The notes: generated from the sequence alone by a model not told the origin. Shown: positions 46,306 to 64,000, numbered from the stretch's first letter. The stretch: 64,000 nt of DNA from Tubiluchus corallicola (GCA_030141605.1 JAQGDQ010000016.1:994282-1058281); one strand, 5' to 3'. A program made the numbers and translations.

Positions 46306-46462
46306 CGATCATGCTGATGAAAATTGTTAAACTTGAACAGTAAACGCTGTTGAATTCACCCACTGGGTTTCACCTTCTCTTTTTCGACATAACAAAATGT
46401 TACAGGATGCTCACTTTTAACGATACGCTCAAGGAAATGTATAACACTAATCGTTTAATAGT

Positions 46463-46852
46463 TAGGGGTGAGCATTCTCTACCAGAAAAAGAATTCGAAT
46501 CGAACAGAACTTCAGTGTTTCGCATTCGAACTGAATTCGAATTGAGATTGAATGATTTTCGAACAAGTTTTCGAACCGCCAGTAAAAATTAGTATTACAA
46601 AGATCATGCATATTACTTGATTTTTTTCTGCAATAAAACGACTAGTAATTTGTTTAAAGTTTTGCACAGAAATCACAGCTAAATTATGCTAATTGAATGA
46701 TGTTTCAATCGTTTTAATGATCAGGAACATATGTGATTGAAGTGCTGAATTATTTGAATCTATAGTTTTGGATTCGAATCGAGTTCGAACTAATAAAACT
46801 CGTTCGAATTCGATTCGAATGTTCGAACTCGAACGTTGGATGCTCGCTCCTA
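46463..46852. mobile_element. hAT-type MITE rich in TTCGAA motifs (copy 1, full length)
   Basis: TIRs TAGGGGTGAGCAT / ATGCTCGCTCCTA; 8-bp target-site duplication TTAATAGT / TGAATAGT (7 of 8 match). Confidence 0.8.
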
Positions 46853-48096
46853 TGAATAGTATGATATGATAGTATAATATCAATAATCATACAATAGTAG
46901 CATATCCCTTCTATGAGATTATTAAATTTTATCAAATAATGTGGCTATACACACATTAATTTTTTAGTGTAGTATGACAGGAATAAATTCAGAAAATTAT
47001 TCATCCTGTTCAGAAAACACGTGTTAGGTAAACAAGTTATCACGAAACAGTTCTAAAAAACTCAGTCTAATACTGAGGTAAACTCAGTGGTATGGGGTCA
47101 GGCAATACGAAACTTAGTAAACTAAAGTTCACCACATGTTATGATATCACTAGCTGAATGAAATCAATTAAATGGCTAATCTCGTTAAGGGCAAAAATCT
47201 CTGAAACCCAAAAAGTTGAAATATAATCAGGATTGTAAGATCTATGTGTGCATAGTAGTGTTGAAGTCTGGTGATGGAGACAATGCAATTTTATTCCAAA
47301 TCCTCGGAATTAATCAATTAATTAGTCAATTAATTAACACAACGAGTTACCACAATTTTTGTTTTGAACCAATGACATCCCTAGATAATAGATAGCTAAT
47401 CAAGAGAATAATTTGAATTTCAACTATTGGGACCTGGAAAGGTGAAATTTCTGTCAAACTAAAATTTGTATATTAAATGGTTCTAATTAATGAACTCATA
47501 GTTAACAAATTGCCACATTTTTTGAGCAAATAACATTCTACATTGGTTAAACCTGACCTTTAGAATTGTCTTACTAAATTGCAACTCAACTAGATATCAG
47601 AACATGAGTTTAGATCAATTCAAAATTATTTAATTAAACTTGCTCTAACTGATTGACTAATATTAATATGTTAACTAATCATCATTTAAATCTCAAGTCA
47701 AATAGTTCATGAAAACATACAATTCAAATCAGTTTGAAATTAATTAATTAATTAAACAGCTAATGAGTTCTACAGATTTTTCTCTTTGAACCAATGACAT
47801 CCTAGCTAATTATCATGCTAAGTCTGAACTCAATAGGGTCACGGTAGAATGAAATTTGTATCAATTTAAAATCAATTAATCAATAACAGGTGTGGTAGTT
47901 GAATGCTCGGAGTGGAGCTTCATTTTTGATGCAACCGAATTCCAAAGTTTGGGCAATTTCAAAAATTTTTATCCTGGACTGAGTAAACTGTAAATATGTT
48001 CAGCAGCTCCTGTTACTTCTTCATATTTATTTTATATGTAGAAAAACCAATTAGCAGGCCAGTAATTATAATAGGCTGAGCTAACCTCCTCTTCTT

Positions 48097-48463
48097 TTCG
48101 AACGAGTTTTTTAAGTTCGAATTCGATTCGTATCTAAAATTATAGATTCGAATAATTCAGCATTTCAGCCACACACGTTCTTTATCATGAAAATGTTTGA
48201 AACAGTATGCAATTAAAGCAATTTGGCTGCAGTTTGTGTAAAAAGCTTTTAACAAACTAATGGTGGTTTTACTGCAGAACAAAATCAAATAATATGCATG
48301 ATCTTTGTAAGGTCACTTTTTACTAGTGGTTCGAAGACTGCTTCAAAAATCTTTAAAACTCAATTCGAATTCGATTCGGATACGAAATACTGAAATTCGG
48401 TTCGAATTCGAAAGTGACAAATTCGATTCGAATTCGCTTTCTGGTAGAGAATGCTCACCCTTA
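48097..48463. mobile_element. hAT-type MITE, copy 2 of the same family, inverted and truncated at one end
   Basis: Reverse complement aligns to ~46463-46808 (e.g. TTTCTGGTAGAGAATGCTCACCC, ATATGCATGATCTTTGTAA). Confidence 0.8.
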
Positions 48464-49598
48464 ACACATTGCATAATCACAATGTTGTGGCAGCAATGGT
48501 AGCACTCATCCATGAACTTCTGGTGCGTACAGTAGTTCTGGATGTCACATGCCAGTCATCAACATGGAACCAATATGGGAAAAGTTAACTCTTTTTTAAG
48601 AAAGTGGATAGCTGCAGAATTTTTGGTGCATTTACTTTAATTCAACACTTATTAAAGCTTAAATGGTTACTTATGAACATGCCTGTGCCCCTGATACGAA
48701 ATATCTTCAGAGCGAAAACCTGCCTTTGCGTCTTGCGTGTTAATTATGTTAACGTTGGGCTTTCAGTTTCATTTCGTGAGTTTTTTTTAATTAATATAGA
48801 TGTCATTCCTCGCAGTTAGTAGAGTACGTTTTGCAGCTTTTGTGTTACTTGTAAACTAAAATGTCAAAGTTTCCATTATTTTTCACTTGGGGTTTTTTGG
48901 CACAGCAGCAGTTATTTCAGTAATTGTCAAGAACTACTCAAACTCAGGTCGACGTTATTCAAAGCGTTTAGTTTCGAATTTCGTTACCACCTGTATCAGC
49001 TCAAACTGCTACTACAGTTTGTTGAGACATTGAGTTCTCATCGCCAGTAAACCTGTGGTTCGGTTTGTCCCCTTGCTTTTGACAGCTGAGTGGTTCAGGG
49101 TTAGATGCCTATTCATTGATGACTTGCTGTCACAGCCAATATTACCAGTTATGTCTGTTATGACTATGAAAACACGTGATGAGGAGATTCTAAATTAAAA
49201 AACTTGCCTGAATTCTATCCTGTGTCCCTCATGCTAGTTGCGACTTCGTAACAAGTGCTCCATCTTCCTACCATTACATGCTGGTATAAAAATTACACTT
49301 GCTAGTGTACAATATCCTCATAATGGATCGAATCATCACAATGCAGAGGGACATTATAGAGAGGGTGAATAAAAATGACATTTTGCATACAGTATTATTT
49401 ATGTGGCATGTGAGTGTTAAGGATGCATTAAGCAGTTGCTTATAATAGATTATAGCTAATGTTACCTGTTTTCCCAGAAATTGTAAATTAGTGCTTTGAC
49501 ATTTTTTTGTCTTTCGTCCCTTCTGTGTGAAAGGCTTAATAAAAAATGTGACTAAAGTTTACTATTTCCCACACACAAAATATTAATTCGTGAAGCAG

Positions 49599-49712: not shown

Positions 49713-49997
49713 TATTTAGATTGTATGGGGAATTGTGAACTCCTTCCAAAAATGCACTTGTACTAAGTTTTTTAAAAAAAATCAAAATCTGTGTTTTTAA
49801 ATTACATGGTCTGTTTCTAAAGGTTATGACATTTTTTAATGTGGTTCTGAACATATTTAATTTGAAATTTATGTGATTCTTTGGCAATAAGTAAAAGCCA
49901 TGGCACCTGAATACAAGTTTTCATAACTGGTTTTTCAGATATTGGTGTTCTAGTGCCACATGAATTTTTCACAAGCATTTGTTTTTGTTTCTTACAG

Positions 49998-51247
49998 GTA
50001 ATTTATCATTACATTGTGGTGGCATTAATAATGTTCACCATTGGCAAAAGGCTTCATCATCATTGTGGCTTTCCAGCAGACTTCTATGGAGACCTGAACA
50101 AGACAGTGAAAAACTTATGACAAGTTCAAGCTTAACAAGTCATTTAATGACATTTTATCCTAGCAAAGAAAGTGTTAGCACTCTGAACCCAATTCAGCTG
50201 TTAGAATTTCAGCATTTTAAACTTACAGATAGTGAATTAAAAATCTCCTGTTTAGATTTTATCAGAACTGCCTCTACATTGAAAAATACTGTGGACTACA
50301 AGTGCCCATCAAAAACGATGTCACATTTTCCATTTGTGTATACTGTCCCTGGTGCTGCAGTTATTGAGAAAATGTTGCCAACAACACATTCTATGGAGTG
50401 TTTCGATCCGGAGGTGTCTTATTGTCCTATGGAGATGCCAGAGCGAATGAATTCTGGTGAAATGTTGGTACGTGGTAAATTACCTTGTGGCCTGCTGAAA
50501 ATACGCAGACGCAAAATGAATAAGCACAAACTTAGAAAACTGCGCAAGAGGATGAAATTCATATGGCGAAGGGTAAGCTTCTTCAGTTTAAAAGTATTAG
50601 GCCTGCTAACTTTCCTAAAGCTAATGAAGTGGTTGGGAAATTTAAGTTAATTTAATTTACTGACCATTTTAAATGCATGTTACACGATTATCAATTGCAT
50701 CATAATAAATATAAAAAATATATATATATATATATATATATGCATCAATATAAAAGTCCTCATTAAGAGCACGGTAGTCTTAAAAGTCTGAATATATTTC
50801 TAAAATATATAAATCATATATATAAATATATATGAATAAAAATATAGCTCATTAAAAGTTCACTGAGTTAGAAAACTGAGTATAATAATGCTAATTTTGC
50901 TAAAATTCATTTTGTTCATTTAACTTTTTAACATTGTCAAATGTAGATTATCTGGAAGTTTCAACTTCAAGGATTTCTGTTGCAATTCGGTAATAATTAT
51001 GGTCTGCATGTTTTAGGCAGAATTAAAGAAGGAACAAAAGAAAGAGAAGGCATTCCAGGCTGAACTTGCTATGATCCTCAAAAAAGCAGAAGATTTTAAT
51101 GCTGAACAGGAAGTTACTACAATGTTAAAGAAATACAATGATGCTCTGTATTGGCAAGCAAATCCGCCTAAGAAAGTTCCTCGGGTACCACCAGGTCACT
51201 CTATTATACCACCACCACCTCGTCAAGCGTATGAGTTTGAGGAGTGA
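49998..51247 (+). CDS. AURKAIP1: Mitochondrial ribosomal protein mS38 / Aurora kinase A-interacting protein 1; last two coding exons, first exon unresolved
   Basis: Exon 49998-50572 ends with the family motif CGLLKIRRRKMNKHKLRKLRKRMKFIWRR. It splices in phase 0 to 51017-51247 (AELKKEQKKEKAFQAELAMILKKAEDF...EFEE*). Confidence 0.88.
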
Positions 51248-51428
51248 TATTTGTAATAGTTGCTGGAGGGATATGGCTGTGACAAAATTGGTAATTCATT
51301 GTGTACTTACAAAATTAATTTTGAAAAGTAAATCGTTCAAAAATTAGAATATGGCACCTCTTTGAGGAATTTCGCTTAGTTTTATTTATACTGTTGTTAC
51401 CGTTTATCGTTCAGCTAATTTTTCTATA

Positions 51429-52018
51429 CAGTAGGCACTGCTTAATAGACTCAGTTTGGGATGAAAATGCTTCGACCCAATCAACCGAGTAAATCCATTA
51501 ACCGACAGACATAGTATTACTAATATAGAAGTATGAATCATCAGCTTAGTATGCACCTCAAAGGCTTTTAATGAATTCTAGAAACAAAATGTTTCTAAAG
51601 TTTCAAAAGCAAACCATGAGGCAAATGTTTAAAAGTTTGCCTTATAGAAATTCGTGGGTAACGATGTTAATTGCAGTGGATGTGCAGGTCAAAGCAAAAC
51701 CACTAGGCTAGCGTATTAGCGTATGATAAATGTTCCTGCTTACTAACAAAATGGTATTTAACATAATTCTTTCTACGTACAGTAGAGCACAAAAGCTAAT
51801 TAAGATGACATGAAAGTCATAGAAGCTTATTAGTCACACAAAAGTGTCTTATTGAAGCACGTGAAACAGACATATTGAGACAACGATGCGGATTATTTGA
51901 ATCTATTATATAGTTAGTTTTTATATAGATTTGAATAGAAGTGGTCTGTGCCAGATATTTTTGAGTCAACTAGGCGACTGATTCTGTTAACCGTGAATCT
52001 AATAAACAGCACCTACTG
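51429..52018. mobile_element. Tc1/mariner-type MITE
   Basis: Imperfect TIRs CAGTAGGCACTGCTTAATAGACTCA / TGAATCTAATAAACAGCACCTACTG, TA on both flanks. Confidence 0.75.
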
Positions 52019-52967
52019 TACTAAAAAATAATTAAAGCTGTCTAATTTCACTTGACAGTATTATTATTAGGTCTCCCTGATGGAAAATTGTGTATTAGTA
52101 TATTAATTCTAGCACTTTTATTCAAAATACCTAGCTATAACCTGTGGCCAGGGTCAATACTATTTTTTACATTTGACAGAATGCAATAATTGTTTTTTAT
52201 TCACTTTTTTGTATGTCTTTCAATTCTTGCATTTACCTGCGATGGATATTACAAGAGAAATAAACAACTCTTTCCTGTTTTCACTGACGTGTTGATTTTT
52301 CAATGTTACCAAGTTGTACCAACATCATTGAACAACTTAATTAATGAGACAAAAATGAGCTCTTTTACAATAGACCCTTGTACACCTTTTTTCTATATAT
52401 ATATATATATATATATATACTGAATTGTTGTATAAGAAGTTACAAAATGTCTATAAATTGGGAATACATTTGGATAGAAAATTCTTTTATTGTAAATAAT
52501 GGTTTATAATGTGAGGCCATATCTGTGCTTCAGAATAGAATTTTTTCCACAACACGTGGTTAATTGCTATAAAACAGCTAAGTAATCTTTCAACATTTTT
52601 CTTTTTATAGAGTTTATAGAGTTTGGCACACTGCAGCTAATATCCAGCATTGTGCTTGGCTTAATAACGATAGTGGTTGTGTCAGAACTGTAACCTAATC
52701 ATTTGCATGGTTAAGGACAGTCTGGTAAGATGACACACTCACCTGCAGAAAGTTTTAGCCACTCTCTCGTCATAAACATTCCCTCCCTCAATGAGAGAAG
52801 ATAACTTGATAGTAGAGCAGGATCCCAGTAGTAGAGATAAGGTATAGAGAGAGAGATACATTTGCGAGATAGAGTAGAGACAAGGCACAGGACCCCGGAA
52901 GTCACATCATTGCATGCCACTGTCACAAAGACTTGCTATTGCAATCATTAACATACTATGACTGTAA

Positions 52968-53627
52968 CAGGGCTGAAATTCATATGCACCCGCTAGCTCA
53001 ATGTTGTAACGACTAGTGTAGTTAGTCAGTTCCTAGTTCCAAATAGCTGAATCAGGTAAGATATTAATTGTTTACACGCAATGTATACGTGTTATGAATG
53101 TTCGTTGACAGAAAATGTGGTTTTGGTTCTCTTTTTACGATGTATAAGAACAACTTATTTTTGCATCCATCAGGCATTCATGACAGATTGACTTGTGCTA
53201 GTGATTCTATGCACAGTGAAAGCATTAAATCGGCTTGAACGTTATGGGTGATTAAAGCCAAATCATTGGCAGTATATGAGTGCTTATAAAACTCTGTGAA
53301 GCAGACATTCAAGAAAGGCCTAGTGCAGTTTTTTGCACTGGAAATGAAAAACATGGAAATCAAACATTAACTGTTCAAAGAAAATGTACGACATTAGTAA
53401 AATACAAACATCATATACAAAAAGTAAAATGTGTTTGACCGATCTCTTGTCTTCTTATTACTTTTTGCTAAAATAATTTAATAGTAGTTACACTTAAATT
53501 AGTTTCTACTTAGGCAAAATATCTATTTTTGCAAATTCACATTTTGTCTTCTGTTCAGAGACTAGTGATTTCTAGAGATTACTAGTCCCTTGAACTAGTG
53601 TGCCATTTTCATGAATTTAAACCCTTG
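52968..53627. mobile_element. Possible old hAT-like non-autonomous element
   Basis: Imperfect inverted termini CAGGGCTGAAATTCAT / ATGAATTTAAACCCTTG with related subterminal CTAG motifs; no clear target-site duplication. Confidence 0.35.
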
Positions 53628-53907
53628 TGCAAGAAATATCACTTCATTTGTCAAACATTCTGAGCATTTTTAATAGAGAGAGGCAGTGTAAAATGTGGCT
53701 AAGCTACTACTGCTGGTTCATTATTTCATCTTAGGAGACATAAGTTTTAAAAACTATGATTATATTTGTATACAATTACGTGTACTTAGGGTTTCAATAC
53801 AAATATATTGGTGTGAGCCACTAACAACAAGTTGTAAATTTTTAGGTTTAGTCTTGATTATTAATAACCAACTTTACTAATTTATCTCAAATTGAAAACT
53901 TATCAAA

Positions 53908-55112
53908 CTACAACTGTAAAAGTTTTGTCAGCATTAGCAACACGCATATCACTATTACGGCACTTGGATATCGTCCTCTTACTCCTCTGTCCAGTCCTCC
54001 TCTGTCCAGCCCATCTTCCTGATGTGGATAGATATCTTTGTAAATTATAGTGGTTGTTGTTGCTGCCCTATCATGACAATTATCCAGGTACTCGCCAATG
54101 CATGCTGCATATGTCATTGCATGCATTATGTAACTTTGCTCTTGAGTGCCTTGAAACAGATGTGACCATGGTCCAATGGCATACATTGGTACGTCTTCTC
54201 CGGCGTGGGCTCCACTTCTTCGTGGAGCAACAGCTTGTTGCTTGTATTCAGGATTGCCTGCAAAAGCCATGTGCTGAATATAAATTTATTAATATTGCAC
54301 AGTGCTATATATTTATATATATATATTTGTGTTAGATGGTGGCACTTGTCAACAAGCTTTCAACAATCAAACTTGCTGACAAACCTTACATGTCCAATTT
54401 TGATGATACAGTCATTGAATCTGGGGATAGATTGGAAGTTCAACTTACTTCAGATAAAAATAATTGTACAAGCCATCACGACACAACATAAACAGCAAAA
54501 ATAAAAAAAACGCATACTCAAAAGCATTAACTTTAAGGCTTAAGTACGTCAGTACAGGAATGACAACACAACTTTAACTAACATGTGACTGTAAAGCTGT
54601 CTCGTCTGTTACTTCCCCAACAGTAACGGAAATTTGAGATTTTATTACTATAATATAGATTGTGTAATACGCAGTTTAATTTTATTGTTTGGTCATTGTG
54701 TAATAGGAGTGGTAGCATGCATCACATATCATCAGTGTAACGTGCATGACAGCGAGCTTACATTGTTGGAGATAGACTTTCAAACGATCTAGGCAGTATT
54801 CCGACTGAAATATTCATTTAAGTGTTACTGGTAAACTTGTTTGTTTACTTAAGGATTGAGGGCTTGGTCAGTAACCATAATGTTCTTATTGGTCTCAAGA
54901 AGCTACTTTTCTTGACTGAATATAAGACAGGTCAAGGCCTATTAGTTCACAACTTAAAAAACGACGTCTTTGTTAACATTGGCGAAGTTATTTACCCGTG
55001 TCTACTCCTGTAATGTTTGGTCTGCCGTCAGGTCCTATTTCAAATCCTGGAGCCAATCCATAAAGCAGTGTCGTATAGGGCTTTTTATCGATCTTCGAAA
55101 TTCCACCTAGAC
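53908..55112 (-). CDS. ALPL: Alkaline phosphatase (tissue-nonspecific-like, GPI-anchor-type tail); only the last two exons are present
   Basis: Exon 54996-55112 (GLGGISKIDKKPYTTLLYGLAPG...RPNITGVDT) splices to 53908-54257 (GNPEYKQQAVAP..HAGEDVPMYAIGPWSHLFQGTQEQSYIMHAMTYAACIG, then a hydrophobic C-terminus). Upstream exons were not found in the window. Confidence 0.9.
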
Positions 55113-55190
55113 CTAGAAAAATCTATTTTTCAAATTTATTTCAAACTTTAAAGCATAAACTAAAGATTTAATGATGGCCTTAATGTTTCT

Positions 55191-55612
55191 AAGGTGCGCG
55201 CGCTCGTGTGTGTGTGTGTGTGTGTGCGCGCGCGCGCGTGTGTGGCTGACTCGATGACCTTCTAGTCCTTCTCCACACCCTCTCTACACAGTTTACATAG
55301 TTTTTTGTAATTCTCTTATGAATATAGTATTGGAGATAAACTTTTGAATTCAAAAAAATTGTGCGCATGTGCTCGTATGTGTGTGCGTGCGCGTGCGTGC
55401 GTTTGTGGCCCAAAAGCTCACCTGGCAAAGCATGTGTCCCGAAAGCACGAAGTTCTGGTTGGGCCACACCTACTTCAATCAATTGGCCATTAGGCTAACT
55501 GTTTTAAGAATGACTCCTCTTAATCTCAGTGCTCACGAGTGTGCGTGCATGTTGTGTTGTGTACGTTTGCGTATTCGATTTTGTGTATGTACAAGTAGTA
55601 CGTACATACCTT
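55191..55612. mobile_element. Possible small non-autonomous DNA element with (TG/CG)n tracts
   Basis: Ends TAAGGTGCGCGCGC and GTACGTACATACCTTA are inverted copies differing only by transitions; GC-richer than the flanks. Confidence 0.35.
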
Positions 55613-56020
55613 AATATGTGCATAATGAATTCAAGTGCTTTAAAGTCAAGAAAGTTGGTTAATTGCACTTTAAAATACATGAGTAGGATAGATGTTACAC
55701 CTCTGGCCGATTTCCCGGGGGGGTGGGGATTTCCCCGGGGGGTGGGGAAAAACACCCCTAAAAAAGTGCGAAAATCCGGGAAAACCCCTAAAAAAGTGTG
55801 AAAACCCGTGTGAAAGTGCGCACGTGACCGAAATCGACGAAAAAGCGCGAAAAACAAAGAAAAACGAAGAAAAGGCGTGTGAAACGAGGTAAAAATTTTG
55901 CAGTTTTTCCCTCCCGCATGGCTTCATTTGGATCGAATGACCTTGAACTCTAGGTCACGTGACCAAAGTTCATTGACCCCTGGCCCCTGGATGGCTTCTT
56001 TTTTTGACGCCCCATTTTAA

Positions 56021-56100
56021 ACCGCGTGAAAGCGCGCGAAAGTGTGTGAAAGCGCGTGAAAGCGCGCGAAAGCGTGCGAAAGTGTGTGAAAGTGTGTGAA
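56021..56100. repeat. Array of eight 10-bp units (AGYGYGYGAA) in the left terminal region
   Basis: accgcgtgaa agcgcgcgaa agtgtgtgaa agcgcgtgaa agcgcgcgaa agcgtgcgaa agtgtgtgaa agtgtgtgaa. Confidence 0.9.
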
Positions 56101-56403
56101 ACGAGGTAAAAAGCGCCTCAAACGAAGAAAAAGGGAGAAGTGGAGTTCCCGCCGAGGACTAATTAGTGCTAATTGGCGCTAATTGGGGAGCCCCTGCCAC
56201 CCCTCCGCCGCATGCAAACGTCCATCCCGGGGGTCGGGGACCCCCCCCTGCAACCCACCCCTCCGTCGCGTGGAATCGTCCACTGCAGGCAATGAGGGAA
56301 ATCTTTTTCTCGCCACTCGCGCAGTGCCGGCCCTTTTCCGCGACCACTTCTCTCTCTCTCGGGTGCCCTCCCTTTTCCGCGACCACTTCTCTCGCGGGTT
56401 TAG

Positions 56404-56455
<52 letters not shown>

Positions 56456-56598
56456 GGAGATTTATTTCAAATGCCAAAGTTTGATAAATGCATTTTCACA
56501 AATCTTTTTTATTGATGGATTACAGGTGTGGAGATTTATTTCAAACGCCAAAGTTCGATAAATGCATTTTCACAAAACTTTTTTTATTGATGGATTAC
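56404..56598. repeat. (TG)n microsatellite followed by a ~73-bp tandem duplication found only in the left arm
   Basis: GTGTGGAGATTTATTTCAAA...GATGGATTACA occurs twice (~56452 and ~56526) on the left but once in the right arm. Confidence 0.85.
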
Positions 56599-56729
56599 AA
56601 AAAATTTTTTTACATTTTTTATGCAAAATACATACGTGCTAAAACTAGATTATTATTATGGTGACATGATAGTTCTACATTTTACGTTTTTTTTCGCAAA
56701 TTACACAAATTATGCAAATTACAGTAAAA

Positions 56730-57322
56730 CTACACTAATGACGACGAGCGAGTACATGGATTGTCGTCGTCGTCGTCGATGTGATACAGACAAACGTTAT
56801 TGTTGTTAAAAACGAATTCGTTAAATTTACGGAAAACACGAGAGAAATCCTCGACCTTTGTCCCGCCCATCATTATTATGCTTCCGGTGTGAAAAATGTT
56901 CAGAGTAATTTATGCTCGCATTTGCAAGTTAGTTTGGGAAATAGTTCCACTTCGTAAAACACTTCTCTAAAAGAATGCGTCGAAGGACGAACGAGTTCTT
57001 CGTACAGTGCACCCAGTTTCAATCTGCAGTGAAGTTTGGCTCTGGCGGTGATGGTGCGAATTGCGATCCCGTCGGCGGGCGTCAGTCCGAGACCTTTCGA
57101 GAGTTCTTCGATCGCATTGCGTAGTGCTTTTTCCTCCGAAAAACCGTTGGCCACCACGGAGCCGGAGGCAAAAATCATCAGCGTCCCGCCCAGTCGCTTT
57201 AGCAGAAGCATTTGCGGTTTCCTTTCGTAGCGTCTTCCGCCCGTTCTCCGCCGGAGTTCGTTCAGATCGAAGCGCTGCGAGAACGAAGCAGTGGCGACGA
57301 TGTTGACCGTTTGGACTGACAC
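56730..57322 (-). pseudogene. TBP-like gene, left-arm copy, frameshifted
   Basis: Mirror of 58958-59548. A 2-nt insertion at ~56911 (GAGCATAAATT vs GAGCAAATT) gives CEHKLL* and removes the end of the second TBP repeat. Confidence 0.8.
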
Positions 57323-57774
57323 GTTAGAACGTAGTTGGCAATCGTTTCGGACGCCCGAACCGCTCTGCCTCGCCCGTTGCTCTGCCAACGTATGGCGGGC
57401 GGCGGGTGCTCGCTTTCCAAATCTTCTACGCGTATGACCACGCGATTTTTGGGGAGATGTTTTTTGACGAAATCGTACATCTCTGCTCCCTTGACGTAGG
57501 TGATCCTGCCTCTGGTGGTCTGTCGTAGAATGTTTTCCAATTCTGCGTACTCGATCATTCCCTCCTCCCACGAGATGCCGTGTATGTGTCTGATTAGGTA
57601 GTTGTAGGTGGATCGCTTGTGCTGGGGAACGCGATTCCAGGGGTGGGGCGGTTTGAAGGTGTAGTTGTGATATATGCCGGTCTCTATTTCGCGAATTACC
57701 AAATTTTTGACCAGGTATTCTTCTTTTCCGCACTGGAAGGCATCTACGGTGAGAACTATGCTCGATTCAGACAT
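57262..57774 (-). CDS. 170-aa DnaQ/DEDD-exonuclease-like protein of a Polinton-associated family (left-arm copy)
   Basis: ATG-initiated ORF with pattern VDAFQ..YLVKNLVI..YTFKPPHPW..YNYLIRHIHGISWEEGMIEY..YVKG. Family assignment is from recall of motif pattern, not a search. Confidence 0.65.
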   Translation of the reverse strand: MSESSIVLTVDAFQCGKEEYLVKNLVIREIETGIYHNYTFKPPHPWNRVPQHKRSTYNYLIRHIHGISWEEGMIEYAELENILRQTTRGRITYVKGAEMYDFVKKHLPKNRVVIRVEDLESEHPPPAIRWQSNGRGRAVRASETIANYVLTCQSKRSTSSPLLRSRSASI

Positions 57775-57997
57775 CTGTGACGATGGGGGGTCCTTCTACG
57801 CCGTCGGCAACGAGTTTTCCTTCGATGACGATTTGCTTGTGATTGTTCACAAATTCCAGAGACTTGATTTTTTCGAAGGTGTATTTTTTTATGACCTTGT
57901 TGGGGGCACTCTTGCGTGCGTTGGCGCGCTTGCCGCCCCGCGTCCCCGCTTGTTGTTGTTGCTTGCGAGGAACGGTGGTTAGAGGTTGTTTGAAATC
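57767..57997 (-). CDS. Small basic protein of unknown function (probably a 3' exon; no in-frame ATG)
   Basis: DFKQPLTTVPRKQQQQAGTRGGKRANARKSAPNKVIKKYTFEKIKSLEF...PIVTDV*. It is preceded by a strong acceptor TTCTTCTTCTCTTGCAG, and its stop overlaps the next ATG (ATGTCTGA). Confidence 0.45.
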   Translation of the reverse strand, partial: DFKQPLTTVPRKQQQQAGTRGGKRANARKSAPNKVIKKYTFEKIKSLEFVNNHKQIVIEGKLVADGVEGPPIVTDV

Positions 57998-58048
57998 CTG
58001 CAAGAGAAGAAGAACAATAGTTATAGTATTGTTGTTCGCTAACGACAA

Positions 58049-58306
58049 CTAGGCATTTTTGATGAGCCATTCTTTCAGATTTCTAGGTTTTTTGGGGGCA
58101 GTGGGGGTGAGCACCATCGGCGGCGATGGAGGGGGCGTCGCGGAAATTACGAGTTTGTCTTCTTCTTTATCATCATCTTTCTCCTCTTCCTCCTCCTCCT
58201 CTCGAAAGATGTCCATTCGTGTCCCTCTCTCGCGTCTGCTTTTACACGGAGGGGCGGAGGTGCCGACGTCCGTGTCTGGCAGACTTCTTTCCGTCCAGTT
58301 TGTCCA
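58049..58306 (-). CDS. 5'-truncated acidic/proline-rich ORF in the palindrome spacer
   Basis: ...MDIFREEEEEEEKDDDKEEDKLVISATPPPSPPMVLTPTAPKKPRNLKEWLIKNA*. The frame stays open up to the arm junction and shares polarity with the left-arm genes. Confidence 0.45.
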   Translation of the reverse strand, partial: WTNWTERSLPDTDVGTSAPPCKSRRERGTRMDIFREEEEEEEKDDDKEEDKLVISATPPPSPPMVLTPTAPKKPRNLKEWLIKNA

Positions 58307-58505
58307 GTTCCTCGCAAGCAACAACAACAAGCGGGGACGCGGGGCGGCAAGCGCGCCAACGCACGCAAGAGTGCCCCCAACAAGGTCATAAAAAAATACA
58401 CCTTCGAAAAAATCAAGTCTCTGGAATTTGTGAACAATCACAAGCAAATCGTCATCGAAGGAAAACTCGTTGCCGACGGCGTAGAAGGACCCCCCATCGT
58501 CACAG

Positions 58506-59018
58506 ATGTCTGAATCGAGCATAGTTCTCACCGTAGATGCCTTCCAGTGCGGAAAAGAAGAATACCTGGTCAAAAATTTGGTAATTCGCGAAATAGAGAC
58601 CGGCATATATCACAACTACACCTTCAAACCGCCCCACCCCTGGAATCGTGTTCCCCAGCACAAGCGATCCACCTACAACTACCTAATCAGACACATACAC
58701 GGCATCTCGTGGGAGGAGGGAATGATCGAGTACGCAGAATTGGAAAACATTCTACGACAGACCACCAGAGGCAGGATCACCTACGTCAAGGGAGCAGAGA
58801 TGTACGATTTCGTCAAAAAACATCTCCCCAAAAATCGCGTGGTCATACGCGTAGAGGATCTGGAAAGCGACCACCCGCCGCCCGCCATACGTTGGCAGAG
58901 CAACGGACGAGGCAGAGCGGTTCGGGCGTCCGAAACGATTGCCAACTATGTTCTAACGTGTCAGTCCAAACGGTCAACATCGTCGCCACGGCTTCGTTCT
59001 CGCAGCGCTTCGATCTGA
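58506..59018 (+). CDS. 170-aa DnaQ/DEDD-exonuclease-like protein of a Polinton-associated family (right-arm copy)
   Basis: Mirror of 57262-57774. Of six arm-to-arm substitutions I found outside the TBP overlap, five are synonymous in this frame and one is E/D, which supports coding status. Confidence 0.7.
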   Translation: MSESSIVLTVDAFQCGKEEYLVKNLVIREIETGIYHNYTFKPPHPWNRVPQHKRSTYNYLIRHIHGISWEEGMIEYAELENILRQTTRGRITYVKGAEMYDFVKKHLPKNRVVIRVEDLESDHPPPAIRWQSNGRGRAVRASETIANYVLTCQSKRSTSSPRLRSRSASI

Positions 59019-59548
59019 ACGAACTCCGGCGGAGAACGGGCGGAAGACGCTACGAAAGAAAACCGCAAATGCTTCTGCTAAAGCGACTGGGCGGGACGCT
59101 GATGATTTTTGCCTCCGGCTCCGTGGTGGCCAACGGTTTTTCGGAGGAAAAAGTACTACGCAATGCGATCGAAGAACTCTCGAAAGGTCTCGGACTGACG
59201 CCCGCCGACGGGATCGCAATTCGCACCATCACCGCCAGAGCCAAAATTCGCTGCAGATTGAAACTGGGTGCACTGTACGAAGAACTCGTTCGTCCTTCGA
59301 CGCATTCTTTTAGAGAAGTGTTTTACGAAGTGGAACTATTTCCCAAACTAACTTGCAAATGCGAGCAAATTACTCTGAACATTTTTCACACCGGAAGCAT
59401 AATAATGATGGGCGGGACAAAGGTCGAGGATTTCTCTCACGTTTTCCGCAAATTTAACGAATTCGTTTTTAACAACAATAACGTTTGTCTGTATCACATC
59501 GACGACGACGACGACAATCCATGTACTCGCTCGTCGTCATTAGTGTAG
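58958..59548 (+). CDS. Divergent TATA-box-binding protein (TBP)-like protein, intact right-arm copy (~196 aa; initiation site uncertain, GTG at 58958)
   Basis: Two TBP repeats. Repeat 1: VNIVATASFSQRFDL..TLMIFASGSVVANG (cf. TBP QNIVSTVNLGCKLDL..TALIFSSGKMVCTG). Repeat 2: FYEVELFPKLTCK..TLNIFHTGSIIMMGG (cf. SYEPELFPGLIYR..LLIFVSGKVVLTG). Intronless, with AATAAA at 59697. Confidence 0.85.
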   Translation: MSVQTVNIVATASFSQRFDLNELRRRTGGRRYERKPQMLLLKRLGGTLMIFASGSVVANGFSEEKVLRNAIEELSKGLGLTPADGIAIRTITARAKIRCRLKLGALYEELVRPSTHSFREVFYEVELFPKLTCKCEQITLNIFHTGSIIMMGGTKVEDFSHVFRKFNEFVFNNNNVCLYHIDDDDDNPCTRSSSLV

Positions 59549-60080
59549 TTTTACTGTAATTTGCATAATTTGTGTAATTTGCGAAAAAAACGTAAAATGT
59601 AGAACTATCACGTCACCATAATAATAATAATAATCTAGTTTTAGCACGTATGTATTTTGCATAAAAAAATGTAAAAAAAATTTTTTGTAATCCATCAATA
59701 AAAAAGATTTGTGAAAATGCATTTATCGAACTTTGGCGTTTGAAATAAATCTCCACACACACACACACACACACACATCTAAACCCGCGAGAGAAGTGGT
59801 CGCGGAAAAGGGAGGGCACCCGAGAGAGAGAAGTGGTCGCGGAAAAGGGCCGGCACTGCGCGAGTGGGGGGGGGGAAGATTTCCCTCATTGCCTGCAATG
59901 GACGATTCCACGTGACGGAGGGGTGGGTTGCAGGGGGGGTGTCCCCGACCCCCGGGACGGACGTTTGCACGCGGCGGAGGGGTGGCAGGGGCTCGCCAAT
60001 TAGCGCCAATTAGCACTAATTAGTCCTCGGCGGGAACTCCACTTCTCCCTTTTTCTTCGTTTGAGGCGCTTTTTACCTCG

Positions 60081-60170
60081 TTTCACACACTTTCACACGC
60101 TTTCGCGCACTTTCACACACTTTCACGCGCTTTCACACACTTTCACATGCTTTCGCGCGGTTTTGCGCGG
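60081..60170. repeat. Array of 10-bp units (TTTCRCRCRC) in the right terminal region
   Basis: Mirror of 56021-56100 with a different unit order and number. Confidence 0.9.
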
Positions 60171-60964
60171 TTTAAAATGGGGTGTCAAAAAAAGAAGCCA
60201 TCCAGGGGTCAATGAACTTTGGTCACGTGACCTAGAGTTCAAGGTCATTCGATCCAAATGAAGCCATGCGGGAGGGAAAAACTGCAAAATTTTTACCTCG
60301 TTTCACACGCCTTTTCTTCGTTTTTCTTTGTTTTTCGCGCTTTTTCGTCGATTTCGGTCACGTGCGCACTTTCACACGGGTTTTCACACTTTTTTAGGGG
60401 TTTTCGCGGATTTTCGCACTTTTTTAGGGGTGTTTTTCCCCACCCCCCCGGGCAGCCAAAGGGGGGGTGGGGAAATCGGCCAGAGGCAAAACATCTATAC
60501 TACTGAGGCCGAAATACCTGGGAAAGTTAAAGTTGTCCAAAAGTCCTGTAAGACCTTCACGACCTGGTAGAACCAGTACTTGACAATAATTATTGAAATT
60601 ATCTCTTTTACTGCATTTGTCACAGACTGGCAATGTTTAAAGCATGTGACGCAAATTGTGGCCTTCAACTATAGGTGACAGTAGGAAATTGTAATAAAAC
60701 CCATCGACCTGTTTTTGTGACTTGATTATAGCTTTTTAATATAAGGCTTAGTTCTAAAAATCCTAACGTTGATTGGGATAATATGTACAAAACATCCAGG
60801 TTACAGAATTCTTGAGATTCGAACACCAAACTATCACTGTCCGTTTGTTTTGGATTTTTTTTTGTAAAAAATAAACCAAAACAGGTACACCAGGGGAAAG
60901 TAATTTTTGTTATTATAATGGTTATTCTCGCGGTGATTTCCAAATAGTTGTTTTCTTTTTATAG

Positions 60965-62767
60965 TTTGAGAAATCTGGTAGTCGAAAAGAAGAATTAGTA
61001 CTGGAAGATTTTCTTGCCAGTTTAAAAGAGACTGAGTTTATGGATGCACATTTTGCGAAGTACAAGGTATAGGCTGTGCTTTCTTTAAATATCAAATAAT
61101 TCATTGTTTAGTATAAGTGACCCAGTCAACATTTTCTTCTTTTTTCTCTTGCTCTTTCTCCTTATTATCACCATCACCATCGCCATCACCATCACCACCA
61201 TCACCACCACCACCACCAACATCATCACGACCATCATCACCACCACCACCACCACCACCACCACCACCATTATTGTTAACATCATGATTATCCGTTGCTG
61301 TGGTCATCACATCATCATCATCATTATCGTCGTCGTTGTCGTCGTCGTCGTCATCATCAACCATCATCATCATCATCACCACCATCACCATCATCATCGT
61401 CGTCGTCGTCGTTGTCGTCGTCGTCATCATCATCAACCATCATCGTCATCATCACCACCATCACCATCATCATCATCATTATCGTCGTCGTCGTCGTCAT
61501 CATCATCATCAACCATCATCGTCATCATCACCACCATCACCATCATCATCATCGCCATACGCTTAACCGTCATCACTGTCATTATTTTTATCATCAGTAT
61601 TTAACCAGCCTAATTTGATAATTGTGAAGGAGAAAATGTTTAATTAGTTGAATTAAAGCAGTGGTTCCCAAAGTAGGGGTAAATTACCCCCCCCCCCCGG
61701 GTAATATGGTTTTGGGGGGGGGGGTAACGGGTACCCATCTGAAAACTTCGCTCGGAATGCATTTTACGTAGTTTTCTTCTTGAAGAGACTGCCTCCGGCA
61801 GGAAACACTGTGTCATGGGGTCCATCATTCGCACGTTCTCACGATCTCTGGTGCGATCCTGGAGAGAAGTCAAAGTTCACGATTGTTTCTTTGGTTTCGA
61901 GTTGGAGAAGCAGTACTAGGTGGGGGGGTAATGGACACGACCGGGTTTCCCTATTTGGGTAACGGTCCGAGAAAAATTTGGGAACCACTGACTTAAAGTG
62001 ACTTAGTTCAGTCAGAACAAGAATAAGAATAAGAATGAGGATAGGAACAAGAAAATGCGTTATGCCAATTTTTTACATTTCAGAGCCTCCGATACACTGA
62101 CTTCTTGGCAGAATTTCCCCAAAGTGACGTCAAAAATTTGCTAAAGGGTGATCCAAAGAGGCACCAAGCCGTGTGGGATTTATTCAAGACTGAATGTGTT
62201 TTTCTTTATGATCATTTACTGGTTCTAAAACAGGTATGTAGCTAAGCAGGGTATCCAGGTTGCTTGACTTGCATTTATACAGTCAATGTATAGTATTGTT
62301 TCTAACATATTCACTTTTAAAGTAAAATAAATATCAGCTGTGACAATTGTTTTGATTGCAGAATATTTTATAGATTGCTGATTTAAAAAATATTTTTCGA
62401 GTAAGTAAGTAACAAAAAGAAAGTACTGTGACATGATAACTAGCCCATTTATTTTTCCATCACTCATTTATTGGTTTATTATTTATTTATTAATTTATTC
62501 ATTAGTGCGCTTTATTTCCATTGCGTTATTCACTCACTCACTTATTCATTACTTTTTTCACTTATCCAGAAAGAGACAGAGAGAGGAAAGAGATAGAGAG
62601 AGAAAGACAGAGTGCATGAGTGACTGAGAGAGTGGGTGTTTGAGTGAGTGAATGAATCAGCGAGTGAGCGAGTGAGTGACAGAATGAGAGAGAGAGAGAG
62701 AGTGAGTGAGTGAGTGAGTGAGTGAGTGAGTGAGTGAGTGAGTGAGTGAGTGAGAGAGAGAGTGAGT

Positions 62768-62819
<52 letters not shown>

Positions 62820-62995
62820 CTTTCTCATTCAGTGCAGACTAATGAAGAAGTTCGCTGCTGCTTCTAAAAAAGCTAAAAATGACTTTTTTATTATTTTAGG
62901 TATTTATGGAACCGTTAAAAAAATGCCAGGTGGAAGGGTTTCTTATGTTTGCTGAGCCAGAGTGTCTTTTTGGAAATTTGGATATGCTGTGTTGT
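60965..62995 (+). CDS. PLEKHG7: PLEKHG7-like RhoGEF (start of the DH domain); three internal exons, partial gene
   Basis: Phase-0 AG/GT exons 60965-61066 (FEKSGSRKEELVLEDFLASLKETEFMDAHFAKYK), 62084-62233 (..KRHQAVWDLFKTECVFLYDHLLVLKQ) and 62900-62995 (VFMEPLKKCQVEGFLMFAEPECLFGNLDMLCC). These match DH-domain helices; the DHLLVLK motif is PLEKHG7-like. Confidence 0.75.
61146..61580. repeat. Compound (CAC/CAT/CGT)n microsatellite with internal higher-order duplications
   Basis: Visible trinucleotide tract in a RhoGEF intron. Confidence 0.92.
61659..61990. mobile_element. hAT (Charlie-like) MITE
   Basis: Perfect 14-bp TIRs CAGTGGTTCCCAAA / TTTGGGAACCACTG; 8-bp TSD AATTAAAG / ACTTAAAG (7 of 8 match). 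Confidence 0.85.
62570..62815. repeat. (GAGT)n/(GA)n microsatellite
   Basis: Visible directly in the sequence. Confidence 0.92.
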
Positions 62996-63326
62996 GTAAG
63001 TTTGATATTCATACATCTAGTGCGTATAAATTCACTTAACAAGAAATCCTTATCAAAGGATACCTTACTAAAATTAGGGTCCAATTACTTTAGGGTACCA
63101 ATTTATTATAAAATTTAAGAACTGTAGTATAAATATACAAACACACGAAATGTTAGAAAGAATGGTGACCTGTTGGAATTCTGAATCATAATAACTCGAA
63201 TGCCCCGAGTTTAGAGGCAAGGTTAATAAAGACTCTGTAGATGTTCGGCGATATTTAGTTTCCAAAAAACTTTCTGAATTTTGTTCCTTCCGTCATGCTA
63301 ATTAATTATAATTATATCTAACAATA

Positions 63327-63480
<154 letters not shown>

Positions 63481-64000
63481 TGATAACTACATTAAAAATG
63501 ATAAAGTGAGATACATTATTCAGATAGAATACGTTGTTTAAGGATCAATAATTTCTTGACCATGGCACAACAAAACCGAGGCAAGGTTAGTTCAACAGAG
63601 ATGAGTTTTTTAGGGTGTCTTTTGTAGCTTCGAAAAGTTCTACCCTTTTAGAAAACGTGATTTATCCCATGCTTTTTTGGTCAAGCGCAGCTGTAAATCC
63701 TCATTGCGTGTGTAACTCATAAGGAATGTCAGAATCGCACTGGATGTAATAGACGTGCTAGACCACTGTGCCAGGCTTTTAAGCCCATGACCACCATGCG
63801 CCTATAACTGGTTTAGAAGTGAAGCAAAGGGATTTCGTGTAATAAGGTTCCGATGAAGTTATTAGGTTACTATATGACGCCATATATATAGAACTTTGCG
63901 AAGGAAAGATAATGTTGATAAATTATTAAACAGCAATCCCTTTTACATGGTTTGCTATAGATTTGCTGAATTGAAAACATCTGAAAATATCCGAAGGGAT

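What the first reader, a model, noticed from the sequence alone, without database searches (positions are those of the whole stretch)
55682..60504. Gene-bearing 4.8-kb palindromic Polinton-like mini-element
Seen: arms of 2292 and 2198 bp in inverted orientation around a 333-bp spacer. Both end in AGTAG(T/G)ATAGATGTT and both carry the same outward-reading array (basic ORF, DnaQ-like, TBP-like, polyA signal). The spacer simply continues the left-arm array. Established: AGTAGT termini with long TIRs characterise protein-primed Polintons/Mavericks, which normally encode pPolB, integrase, ATPase, protease and capsids; all are absent here. Inference: a snap-back defective genome with two copies of the same end, a non-autonomous derivative with unusually long gene-containing TIRs, or two fused ends. 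It keeps both origin-like termini and could be mobilised in trans.
Basis: partly seen in the sequence, partly recalled or inferred. Interest (0 to 1): 0.85.

Follow-up and report, generated by a model that had tools for sequence, protein, structure and literature searches.

The report
Fold-back scar joining two Polinton ends
This 4.8-kb mirror-image stretch is two copies of one end of an abundant, likely Polinton-type virus-like transposon, but it has no insertion scar and appears to link two different genes, so it is likely a one-off fold-back accident (in the animal or during sequencing) and not a new mobile mini-element; the end itself carries an unusual TATA-binding-protein-like gene.

Summary
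The palindrome is in the sequence as described: arms of 2292 and 2198 nt, 97.8% identical, around a 333-nt spacer, with AGTAG(G/T) ends. A TBP-like gene (Pfam E 4e-22) and a DnaQ-fold gene of a family carried by Polintons/adintoviruses are confirmed. The 'mobile mini-element' reading is not supported. There is no target-site duplication. The left flank holds only the 3' exons of an alkaline phosphatase gene; the right flank holds exons of another gene on the other strand. In public runs the family is roughly 60-80-fold over unique DNA, yet no shown contig crosses the central joint; contigs leave it on both sides into other sequence. The joint sits on a 9-nt inverted repeat predicted to pair, and the inner 342 nt of the arms are identical while the rest differ by about 2%. 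Best reading (0.72): fold-back copying of one Polinton end, then joining to a second copy at another locus, about as likely an amplification/assembly chimera as a real rearrangement. A rare real satellite is not excluded, because contigs also drop other private variants of this copy. The TBP-bearing Polinton end is the more lasting point of interest.

The parts
55682..57973 (.). Left arm: one end of the parent element (terminus AGTAGG, about 1 kb non-coding repeats, gene cassette read on the minus strand)
57974..58306 (.). 333-nt spacer; continues the left arm in the parent family (public contigs run from the arm into it)
   Evidence: (X3 record 19 covers 57596-58013; X3 record 20 covers 57984-58115)
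58307..60504 (.). Right arm: inverted copy of the same end (terminus AGTAGT); inner 342 nt identical to the left arm, the rest about 2% different
57965..57973 (+). 9-nt inverted-repeat half (GCGAGGAAC), predicted fold-back priming site
58307..58315 (+). 9-nt microhomology at the joint (GTTCCTCGC): spacer-side contigs match through 58315, arm-side contigs start at 58307
58506..59018 (+). DnaQ/DEDD-fold (MAEL-like) ORF, 170 aa, open; first acidic ExoI position is Thr and the family's C-H-C motif is absent, so likely not a normal nuclease
58958..59548 (+). TBP-like ORF, 196 codons, open, overlaps the end of the DnaQ-fold ORF; no in-frame ATG before codon 38, candidate splice acceptor at 58963-58964
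57262..57774 (-). Left copy of the DnaQ-fold ORF, open
56900..57322 (-). Left copy of the TBP-like ORF, frame ends early (2-nt indel against the right arm at 56911)
57767..57997 (-). Basic ORF behind a candidate splice acceptor at about 57998; no family found
58049..58216 (-). Short acidic ORF in the spacer with a candidate splice donor; likely first exon for the basic ORF (inference)
58316..58513 (+). Right copy of the basic ORF, 5'-truncated by the joint
53908..55122 (-). Left flank: last two coding exons of a host alkaline phosphatase (about residue 375 to the end); upstream exons not found up to 64000
60965..63007 (+). Right flank: three phase-0 exons of another host gene (60965-61066, 62084-62233, from 62900), unidentified by tools
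   Evidence: no hit

Best explanation
The palindrome is likely a one-off fold-back product of one end of a multi-copy Polinton/Maverick-type element, likely completed on a second copy of the same family at another locus. Inferred steps: a strand ending at 58315 folds back over a 333-nt loop onto its 9-nt complement at 57965-57973; synthesis copies the same strand outward for some 340-550 nt (inner arms identical); the new end, now homologous to every family copy, continues on a different copy and runs out through that copy's terminus into its flank. This gives two same-type ends, no target-site duplication and two unrelated flanks. The same steps can happen in a cell (foldback inversion with repeat capture) or in the tube and assembler (amplification palindrome plus repeat mis-join); I put these at about 45:55. 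It would not be a unit that transposed as a whole. In the parent, the cassette likely works as an accessory/late module: the TBP-like protein is predicted to bind promoter DNA as a private transcription factor, and the DnaQ-fold protein is likely a non-catalytic nucleic-acid binder.
For: Shown: 9-nt inverted microhomology exactly at the joint, paired in both the minimum-energy and centroid folds of 57955-58315; no TSD; 0 differences in the inner 342 nt and 1 in 549 against 14 events in 1239 coding nt (P about 0.011 and 0.003 if uniform); spacer-side contigs in X1, X3, X4 stop matching at 58315 and run on into other sequence, arm-side contigs start at 58307 preceded by the left-arm continuation; in X1 the depth at 58320-58324 (13007.2) equals the three listed arm-side pieces, so 0 of 15 contigs cross the joint, and 0 of 2 in X3; single pieces of spacer (12,278) and arm (12,925-13,410) against unique flanks (162-210) in X1 show a multi-copy family; an X1 contig carries the right flank but goes on left of 60505 with at least 44 letters unlike the element, and no joint from the left flank to the right flank is among the 3 joints listed; left flank is the 3' end of alkaline phosphatase on minus, right flank in-phase exons on plus. 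Known mechanisms: foldback synthesis followed by template switch or repeat-mediated capture in yeast (PMC10622511, abstract and passages); amplification palindromes in long reads (PMC6218980 passages; PMC13265396 abstract).
Against: Absence of the joint from contigs is weak against a single real copy: the window's own allele at 58250-58274 also has no cover in any of the 4 runs, and only 8 of 27 (X2) and 8 of 36 (X4) pieces were shown. The overall fold of the loop is not better than shuffles (z -1.24; 10 of 100 as good) and 9 such 9-nt inverted pairs lie within 500 nt in this end. The identical inner run was tested after seeing it, and divergence is uneven along the arms. The right-flank gene was not identified, only 3.5 kb of right flank was searched for the missing phosphatase exons, and long introns could hide them. 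The parent's other end and core were not seen, so a parent with very long gene-bearing TIRs is not excluded; equal depth of spacer and arm only excludes a TIR that stops at 57973. X1, X2 and X4 are one sample and may be the window's source.
Confidence: 0.72

Rival explanations
1. A real, low-copy palindromic satellite (snap-back defective genome) of the family exists at two or more loci and can be copied by helper elements; the window shows a recombinant or mis-join between two such copies.
For: Both origin-type termini are kept and the right-arm DnaQ-fold and TBP-like frames are open; CpG o/e 1.1-1.4 against 0.65-0.76 in the flanks suggests a young element; contigs drop private variants. Earlier scan notes describe palindromic Maverick-ended families in other genomes (unchecked leads, not support).
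Against: No contig crosses the joint in X1 (0 of 15) although X1 keeps variant pieces at depth 35-47 beside pieces at 13,000; no TSD; the joint cuts a reading frame and removes its acceptor.
Confidence: 0.12
2. The parent has unusually long (over 2.6 kb) gene-bearing TIRs, and the palindrome is a microhomology-mediated internal deletion of one element, later recombined with or mis-joined to another locus.
For: About 2-kb gene-containing TIRs are reported in butterfly polintons (bioRxiv 10.1101/2025.02.07.637071, section 12); an inverted 9-mer inside a TIR is a direct repeat between the two TIRs; equal spacer and arm depth fits; binned depth over the terminal 700 nt is not higher than over the genes in X2 and X4.
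Against: Usual TIRs are 100-1500 bp (bioRxiv 10.1101/2023.08.22.554363 passage); a deletion could land anywhere in the core, whereas a short loop closed by a stem is what fold-back predicts; in X1 the terminal bins are deeper than most gene bins; a second event is still needed for the missing TSD.
Confidence: 0.09
3. A free linear snap-back genome integrated once with uncoordinated ends, deleting or rearranging the host DNA between two sites.
For: No TSD, termini differ at base 6 and in the next 50 nt, both flanking genes appear to lack their 5' parts.
Against: A fresh snap-back genome should have identical arms, but outer arms differ by 47 substitutions and 14 indel events with an identical inner part.
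Confidence: 0.05

Closest known systems
Polinton/Maverick elements, adintovirus type (PMC8097293 passages; PMC8502044 passages and sections 8, 10; bioRxiv 10.1101/2023.08.22.554363 passages)
   Same: (AGT)2-type terminus at the right end and a one-base variant at the left; accessory DnaQ/MAEL-like gene whose nearest named viral structure is a Drosophila-associated adintovirus 2 protein (E 1.6e-10); multi-copy, CpG-rich.
   Different: No pPolB, integrase, ATPase, protease or capsid; no 6-bp TSD; both arms are the same end; carries a TBP-like gene.
mael-associated polintons and butterfly polintons with 2-kb gene-bearing TIRs (bioRxiv 10.1101/2025.02.07.637071, section 12; MAEL ORFs in leafhopper adintoviruses, bioRxiv 10.64898/2026.07.28.741253 passages)
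   Same: MAEL/DnaQ-fold accessory gene; duplicated genes inside inverted arms.
   Different: Those are full-length insertions with core genes, and their TIR genes are hexon and adenain; here the core is absent, the joint is a 9-nt fold-back site, and the protein lacks the family's Glu and C-H-C residues.
Foldback inversions stabilised by repeat-mediated capture (yeast; PMC10622511 abstract and passages)
   Same: Short inverted repeat at the centre, a spacer, and continuation at another locus through a dispersed repeat.
   Different: Yeast spacers cited are 6-35 bp, here 333 nt; here the whole duplication lies within a mobile element; in-cell origin is not shown.
Palindromic chimeric reads from whole-genome amplification (PMC6218980 passages; PMC13265396 abstract)
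   Same: Inverted duplication absent from short-read-type contigs.
   Different: The library type is not on record; the outer arm differs from the first arm and ends in another flank, which needs an extra repeat mis-join.
TBP (PF00352) and viral TBP-like proteins; a TBP-labelled gene in MELD viruses with adintovirus-like PolB (figure legend in PMC8502044 section 10; figure not seen)
   Same: Two-repeat TBP saddle by Pfam (E 4.2e-22), PDB sequence hits (best E 2.9e-9) and fold matches to giant-virus TBPs.
   Different: Very divergent; by the alignment the NVVAT-like, IFASG-like, ELFP-like and IFxSG-like motifs are kept but the Phe of the first YNPxxF loop is replaced (role of these residues recalled); no upstream ATG, so likely spliced.

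Membership tests
Polinton/Maverick (autonomous) | (AGT)2//(ACT)2-type terminal motif | tested here: met
   AGTAGT at the right end, AGTAGG at the left; motif per PMC8097293
Polinton/Maverick (autonomous) | 6-bp (5-8 bp) target-site duplication | tested here: not met
   TACATG vs GAGGCC; no 4-8 nt match at offsets -3..+3
Polinton/Maverick (autonomous) | pPolB, integrase, ATPase, protease, major and minor capsid genes | tested here: not met
   No ORF of that size or kind between the ends; Pfam on 5 ORFs gives only TBP
Polinton/Maverick (parent family) | Core genes beyond the spacer in natural copies | not testable with these tools
   No genome held; contigs only show that copies run on past 58315
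Polinton/Maverick (parent family) | Accessory gene family typical of adintovirus-type elements | tested here: met
   Relatives lie beside DJR capsid, integrase, A32 ATPase or adenoviral protease genes in 4 of 9 loci (L003, L008, L009, L010); the other 5 are 1.2-1.7 kb and were not scanned
Non-autonomous transposon derivative (mobilised mini-element) | Several insertions share the same internal joint | tested here: inconclusive
   0 of 15 (X1) and 0 of 2 (X3) contigs cross the joint; 0 of 8 shown of 27 (X2) and of 36 (X4); not the common form, but a rare form can be dropped
Non-autonomous transposon derivative (mobilised mini-element) | Inserted as one unit (TSD, flanks adjacent in the empty allele) | tested here: not met
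   No TSD; no left-flank to right-flank joint among 3 listed although element-free right-flank sequence is present
Snap-back/fold-back defective genome | Both arms are the same end, joined at a short inverted microhomology | tested here: met
Snap-back/fold-back defective genome | Arms copied from one molecule along their length | tested here: not met
   Only the inner 342-549 nt are (near) identical; 61 difference events overall
Snap-back/fold-back defective genome | Exists and replicates as a free linear DNA with helper | not testable with these tools
   No raw reads offered
TBP family (PF00352) | Two TBP repeats above the Pfam cut-off | tested here: met
   78.2 bits vs cut-off 22.9, 2 stretches; 35 PDB sequences, all TBPs or TBP fusions
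TBP family (PF00352) | Binds TATA-type DNA | not testable with these tools
   Bench assay needed
DnaQ/DEDD exonucleases | DnaQ fold | tested here: met
   Model pLDDT 93; ISG20 Z 13.0, rmsd 3.0, 145 aligned; epsilon Z 12.1; Maelstrom Z 10.9
DnaQ/DEDD exonucleases | Acidic catalytic residues / family metal ligands | tested here: not met
   Position 9 is Thr where 58 of 67 relatives have Asp or Glu; position 24 is Asn where 61 of 67 have Glu; C-H-C motif in 50 of 67 relatives, absent here

The most novel reading that the evidence does not exclude
A genuine germ-line snap-back genome of a TBP-encoding animal Polinton: two replication-origin ends and two copies of a private transcription cassette (TBP-like plus a dead DnaQ/MAEL-like protein), present at low copy, able to ride on or interfere with full-length elements, and caught fusing two host loci.
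Probability: 0.15. Interest if true: 0.7.

Novelty: new variant of a known kind. Interest (0 to 1): 0.3.

Why it matters
If the joint is real DNA, it is a base-resolved record of how Polinton ends fold back and capture another locus, which would make these elements a source of fold-back rearrangements in animals and would show the first step towards palindromic satellites. If it is a chimera, it marks a mis-join in this assembly that cuts two host genes, and warns that palindromic 'mini-Polintons' without a TSD need read support. Either way the family end carries an overlapping DnaQ-fold/TBP-like pair, also seen in a relative at about 60% identity; my searches found only a figure-legend mention of TBP in such viruses, so a private TBP in animal Polintons looks under-described and is easy to test.

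Tried and rejected
No genome is held, so the parent could not be searched. Word-index protein search: DnaQ-fold ORF 0 of 52 candidates, TBP-like ORF 1 of 152 (P0001, 59%), right-flank exon 0 of 1. TBP-like relatives with context: none in viral contigs by single query (0 of 40 stretches) or in metagenome contigs (0 of 295); 2 of 195 (L001, L002) are short matches inside phage tail genes and were rejected as noise. Alignments A1 and A2 were too diverse for the locus scan; A4 gave 0 of 74. No Pfam or PDB sequence hit for the DnaQ-fold family. Basic ORF: no Pfam hit, Atlas hits uninformative (recognition 1589). Right-flank exons: no Pfam or PDB hit; their likeness to a RhoGEF DH domain is recalled only. 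No RNA holder listed. The 57954-58408 'opposite strands' joint in X2 maps to a short internal deletion in mirror coordinates, not to the central joint. Binned depth as a test of TIR length gave opposite answers in X1 and in X2/X4 and was dropped; my notebook remark that the cassette occurs once per parent overstated it. X2 record 15 links the right terminus to the right flank with 28 letters inside the element, just under the tool's 31-letter bar. Papers PMC3014272 (passages) and PMC11445987 (passages) did not give the terminal motif; bioRxiv 10.1101/697771 (passages) added only the same TBP legend. Other papers were seen as listings only. No supplements or figures were read; gene maps in PMC8502044 and the Pannagram preprint may bear on TBP and mael context. 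Earlier-finding look-ups by sequence and in this genome showed nothing relevant.
Full report
Observation. The window holds an inverted pair of arms, 55682-57973 and 58307-60504, around a 333-nt spacer. Over the arms 2123 of 2170 ungapped columns match, with 47 substitutions and 14 indel events. The ends read AGTAGGATAGATGTT and AGTAGTATAGATGTT; (AGT)2 with a 6-bp target-site duplication is the commonest vertebrate Maverick end (PMC8097293 passages). The element is 44-53% GC against about 33% in the flanks, with CpG o/e 1.1-1.4 against 0.65-0.76. No other part of it occurs in the window.

Genes. The right arm carries an open 170-aa ORF (58506-59018) and an overlapping open 196-codon ORF (58958-59548). 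The second is TBP-like: Pfam PF00352 E 4.2e-22 with two stretches, 35 PDB sequences that are all TBPs or TBP fusions, and a model (pLDDT 71) whose best named viral matches are giant-virus TBPs. It has no in-frame ATG before codon 38, and an acceptor-like site lies at 58963-58964, so splicing is likely (inference). The first ORF has no Pfam hit but 644 relatives at E up to 0.001; its model (pLDDT 93) has the DnaQ fold (ISG20 Z 13.0, rmsd 3.0, 145 aligned; Maelstrom Z 10.9), and the best named viral match is a Drosophila-associated adintovirus 2 protein (E 1.6e-10). Nine loci with family members were fetched; the window protein hits 7 of the 9, and 4 of the 9 show Polinton virion-module genes by Pfam (L003, L008, L009, L010); the other 5 are short and were not scanned. 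None of the 9 gave a TBP hit. This matches the 'mael' accessory gene reported for polintons (bioRxiv 10.1101/2025.02.07.637071 section 12; bioRxiv 10.64898/2026.07.28.741253 passages); that it is the same family is my inference. The window protein has Thr and Asn where most of 67 relatives have acidic residues (58 and 61 of 67) and lacks the C-H-C motif seen in 50 of 67, so it is likely not a normal nuclease. The closest relatives of the two ORFs (P0001, 59%; P0002, 62%) each come from a 1855-nt contig, probably the same one (inference), which would make the pair conserved. The arms are not equal: the left TBP-like frame has a 2-nt indel against the right arm at 56911 and stops after about 137 codons, and the right basic ORF lacks the acceptor that lies in the spacer.

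The ends do not mark one insertion. The flanking hexamers are TACATG and GAGGCC, and no 4-8 nt duplication appears at offsets of up to 3. The left flank holds the last two coding exons of an alkaline phosphatase on the minus strand (PF00245 positions 369-423; PDB residues 375-415); no further phosphatase exon was found among 105 frames scanned from 51000-55681 and 60505-64000. The right flank holds three phase-0 exons with AG/GT-type borders on the plus strand (first two complete, third by its acceptor), which no tool identified. Both genes read away from the element and seem to lack their 5' parts, though long introns could hide them. In public contigs, X2 record 15 links 28 letters of the right terminus to the right flank without difference; X1 record 8 carries the same flank but continues left of 60505 with at least 44 letters unlike the element; X1 record 2 stops matching at 55681; and none of the 3 listed joints links left flank to right flank. 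So element-free alleles exist, and they do not join these two flanks. X1, X2 and X4 are one sample and may be the window's source; X3 is from a second study.

The central joint. On 58250-58370, contigs from the spacer side match through 58315 and go on into other sequence in X1, X3 and X4, and contigs from the arm side start at 58307 with the left-arm continuation in front. The shared 9 nt, 58307-58315, are the reverse complement of 57965-57973, and they pair in both the minimum-energy and centroid folds of that strand, although the whole fold is not better than shuffles (z -1.24). In X1 the depth at 58320-58324 equals the sum of three listed arm-side pieces, so 0 of 15 contigs cross the joint; 0 of 2 do in X3; none of the 8 shown of 27 (X2) or of 36 (X4) does. 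Single pieces have depth 12,278 (spacer) and 12,925-13,410 (arm) against 162-210 for unique flanks in X1: roughly 60-80-fold, a crude figure that the tool warns is not a copy number. The joint is therefore not the amplified form of the family. It does not follow that it is absent: the window's own allele at 58250-58274 has no cover in any run either. Differences between the arms are uneven: none in the inner 342 nt and one in 549, against 14 events in 1239 coding nt (P about 0.011 and 0.003 if uniform, tested after the fact). At 57747 and its mirror both arms carry the allele that is in the minority in the runs.

Mechanism. The simplest account is two steps (both inferred): fold-back priming at the 9-nt repeat with outward copying of the same strand, then continuation on another family copy through to its terminus and flank. 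In cells this is the foldback-inversion route with template switch or capture at a dispersed repeat (PMC10622511 abstract and passages). In the laboratory, amplification makes palindromic reads (PMC6218980 passages; PMC13265396 abstract) that an assembler could extend through a 98%-identical repeat. Library types are not on record, and the scan's notes on this genome fall on 27 pieces for 29 windows, which hints at a fragmented assembly. I give the two-step account 0.72, split about 45:55 between cell and tube. Rivals: a rare real satellite (0.12), an internal deletion of a parent with very long gene-bearing TIRs (0.09; such TIRs are reported in butterflies, against a usual 100-1500 bp), and aberrant integration (0.05).

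Comparison and novelty. It works like a snap-back derivative of a Polinton end but fails membership as an inserted Polinton or as a mobilised non-autonomous element (no TSD, no core genes, joint not amplified). The parent is probably an adintovirus-type Polinton; its core was not seen. A TBP label appears in a figure legend on MELD viruses (PMC8502044 section 10; figure not seen); searches listed no paper devoted to TBP in animal Polintons, and searches listed none on palindromic Polinton derivatives, by title and abstract start. Earlier notes of this scan describe both TBP-bearing Polintons and palindromic Maverick-ended families in other genomes; they are unchecked leads, and they mean that neither theme is unique to this window.

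Verdict. Real in the assembly, Polinton-derived, most likely a one-off fold-back and mis-join or rearrangement, not a demonstrated mobile mini-genome. New variant of a known kind; interest 0.3.

Noticed in passing
window 55682-60504 in run X3: In the second study's run, element pieces reach depth 500-4500 while host flanks are at about 4-5, a far higher ratio than in sample S1 (about 60-80). Could be many more copies, free replicating DNA or library bias; library type is not on record.
   Followed up: no
window 46461-48465: Older inverted-repeat element, arms about 350 nt at 77% identity around 1.3 kb; no perfect terminus/TSD pair found in a small scan.
   Followed up: partly
window 55128-55368: X1 and X2 contigs show a joint from 55368 back to 55128 with 23 other letters between, at near full depth: a local duplication or repeat variant that the window lacks.
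   Followed up: no
window 60435-60475 and 55709-55748: Just inside the right terminus lies a GC-rich 41-nt imperfect hairpin; the left terminus has a 19-nt tandem repeat there instead.
   Followed up: no
window 56452-56599: 74-nt tandem duplication on the left arm that doubles the poly(A)-signal region next to a (TG)n tract.
   Followed up: no
window 58049-58216 and 57767-57997, minus strand: Acidic ORF with a donor-like site and basic ORF behind a strong acceptor; likely one spliced gene with an unspliced alternative (inference).
   Followed up: partly
window 9214-9591 (-), 49964-50650 (+): Host exons resembling a peroxidase/dual oxidase and a mitoribosomal mS38/AURKAIP1-type protein (names recalled from motifs, not tested).
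   Followed up: no
L008 and L009: L008 is a Polinton-like contig with the ATPase placed after capsid and the MAEL-like gene and the integrase on the other strand; L009 holds two MAEL-like genes facing each other around an adenoviral-type protease.
   Followed up: partly
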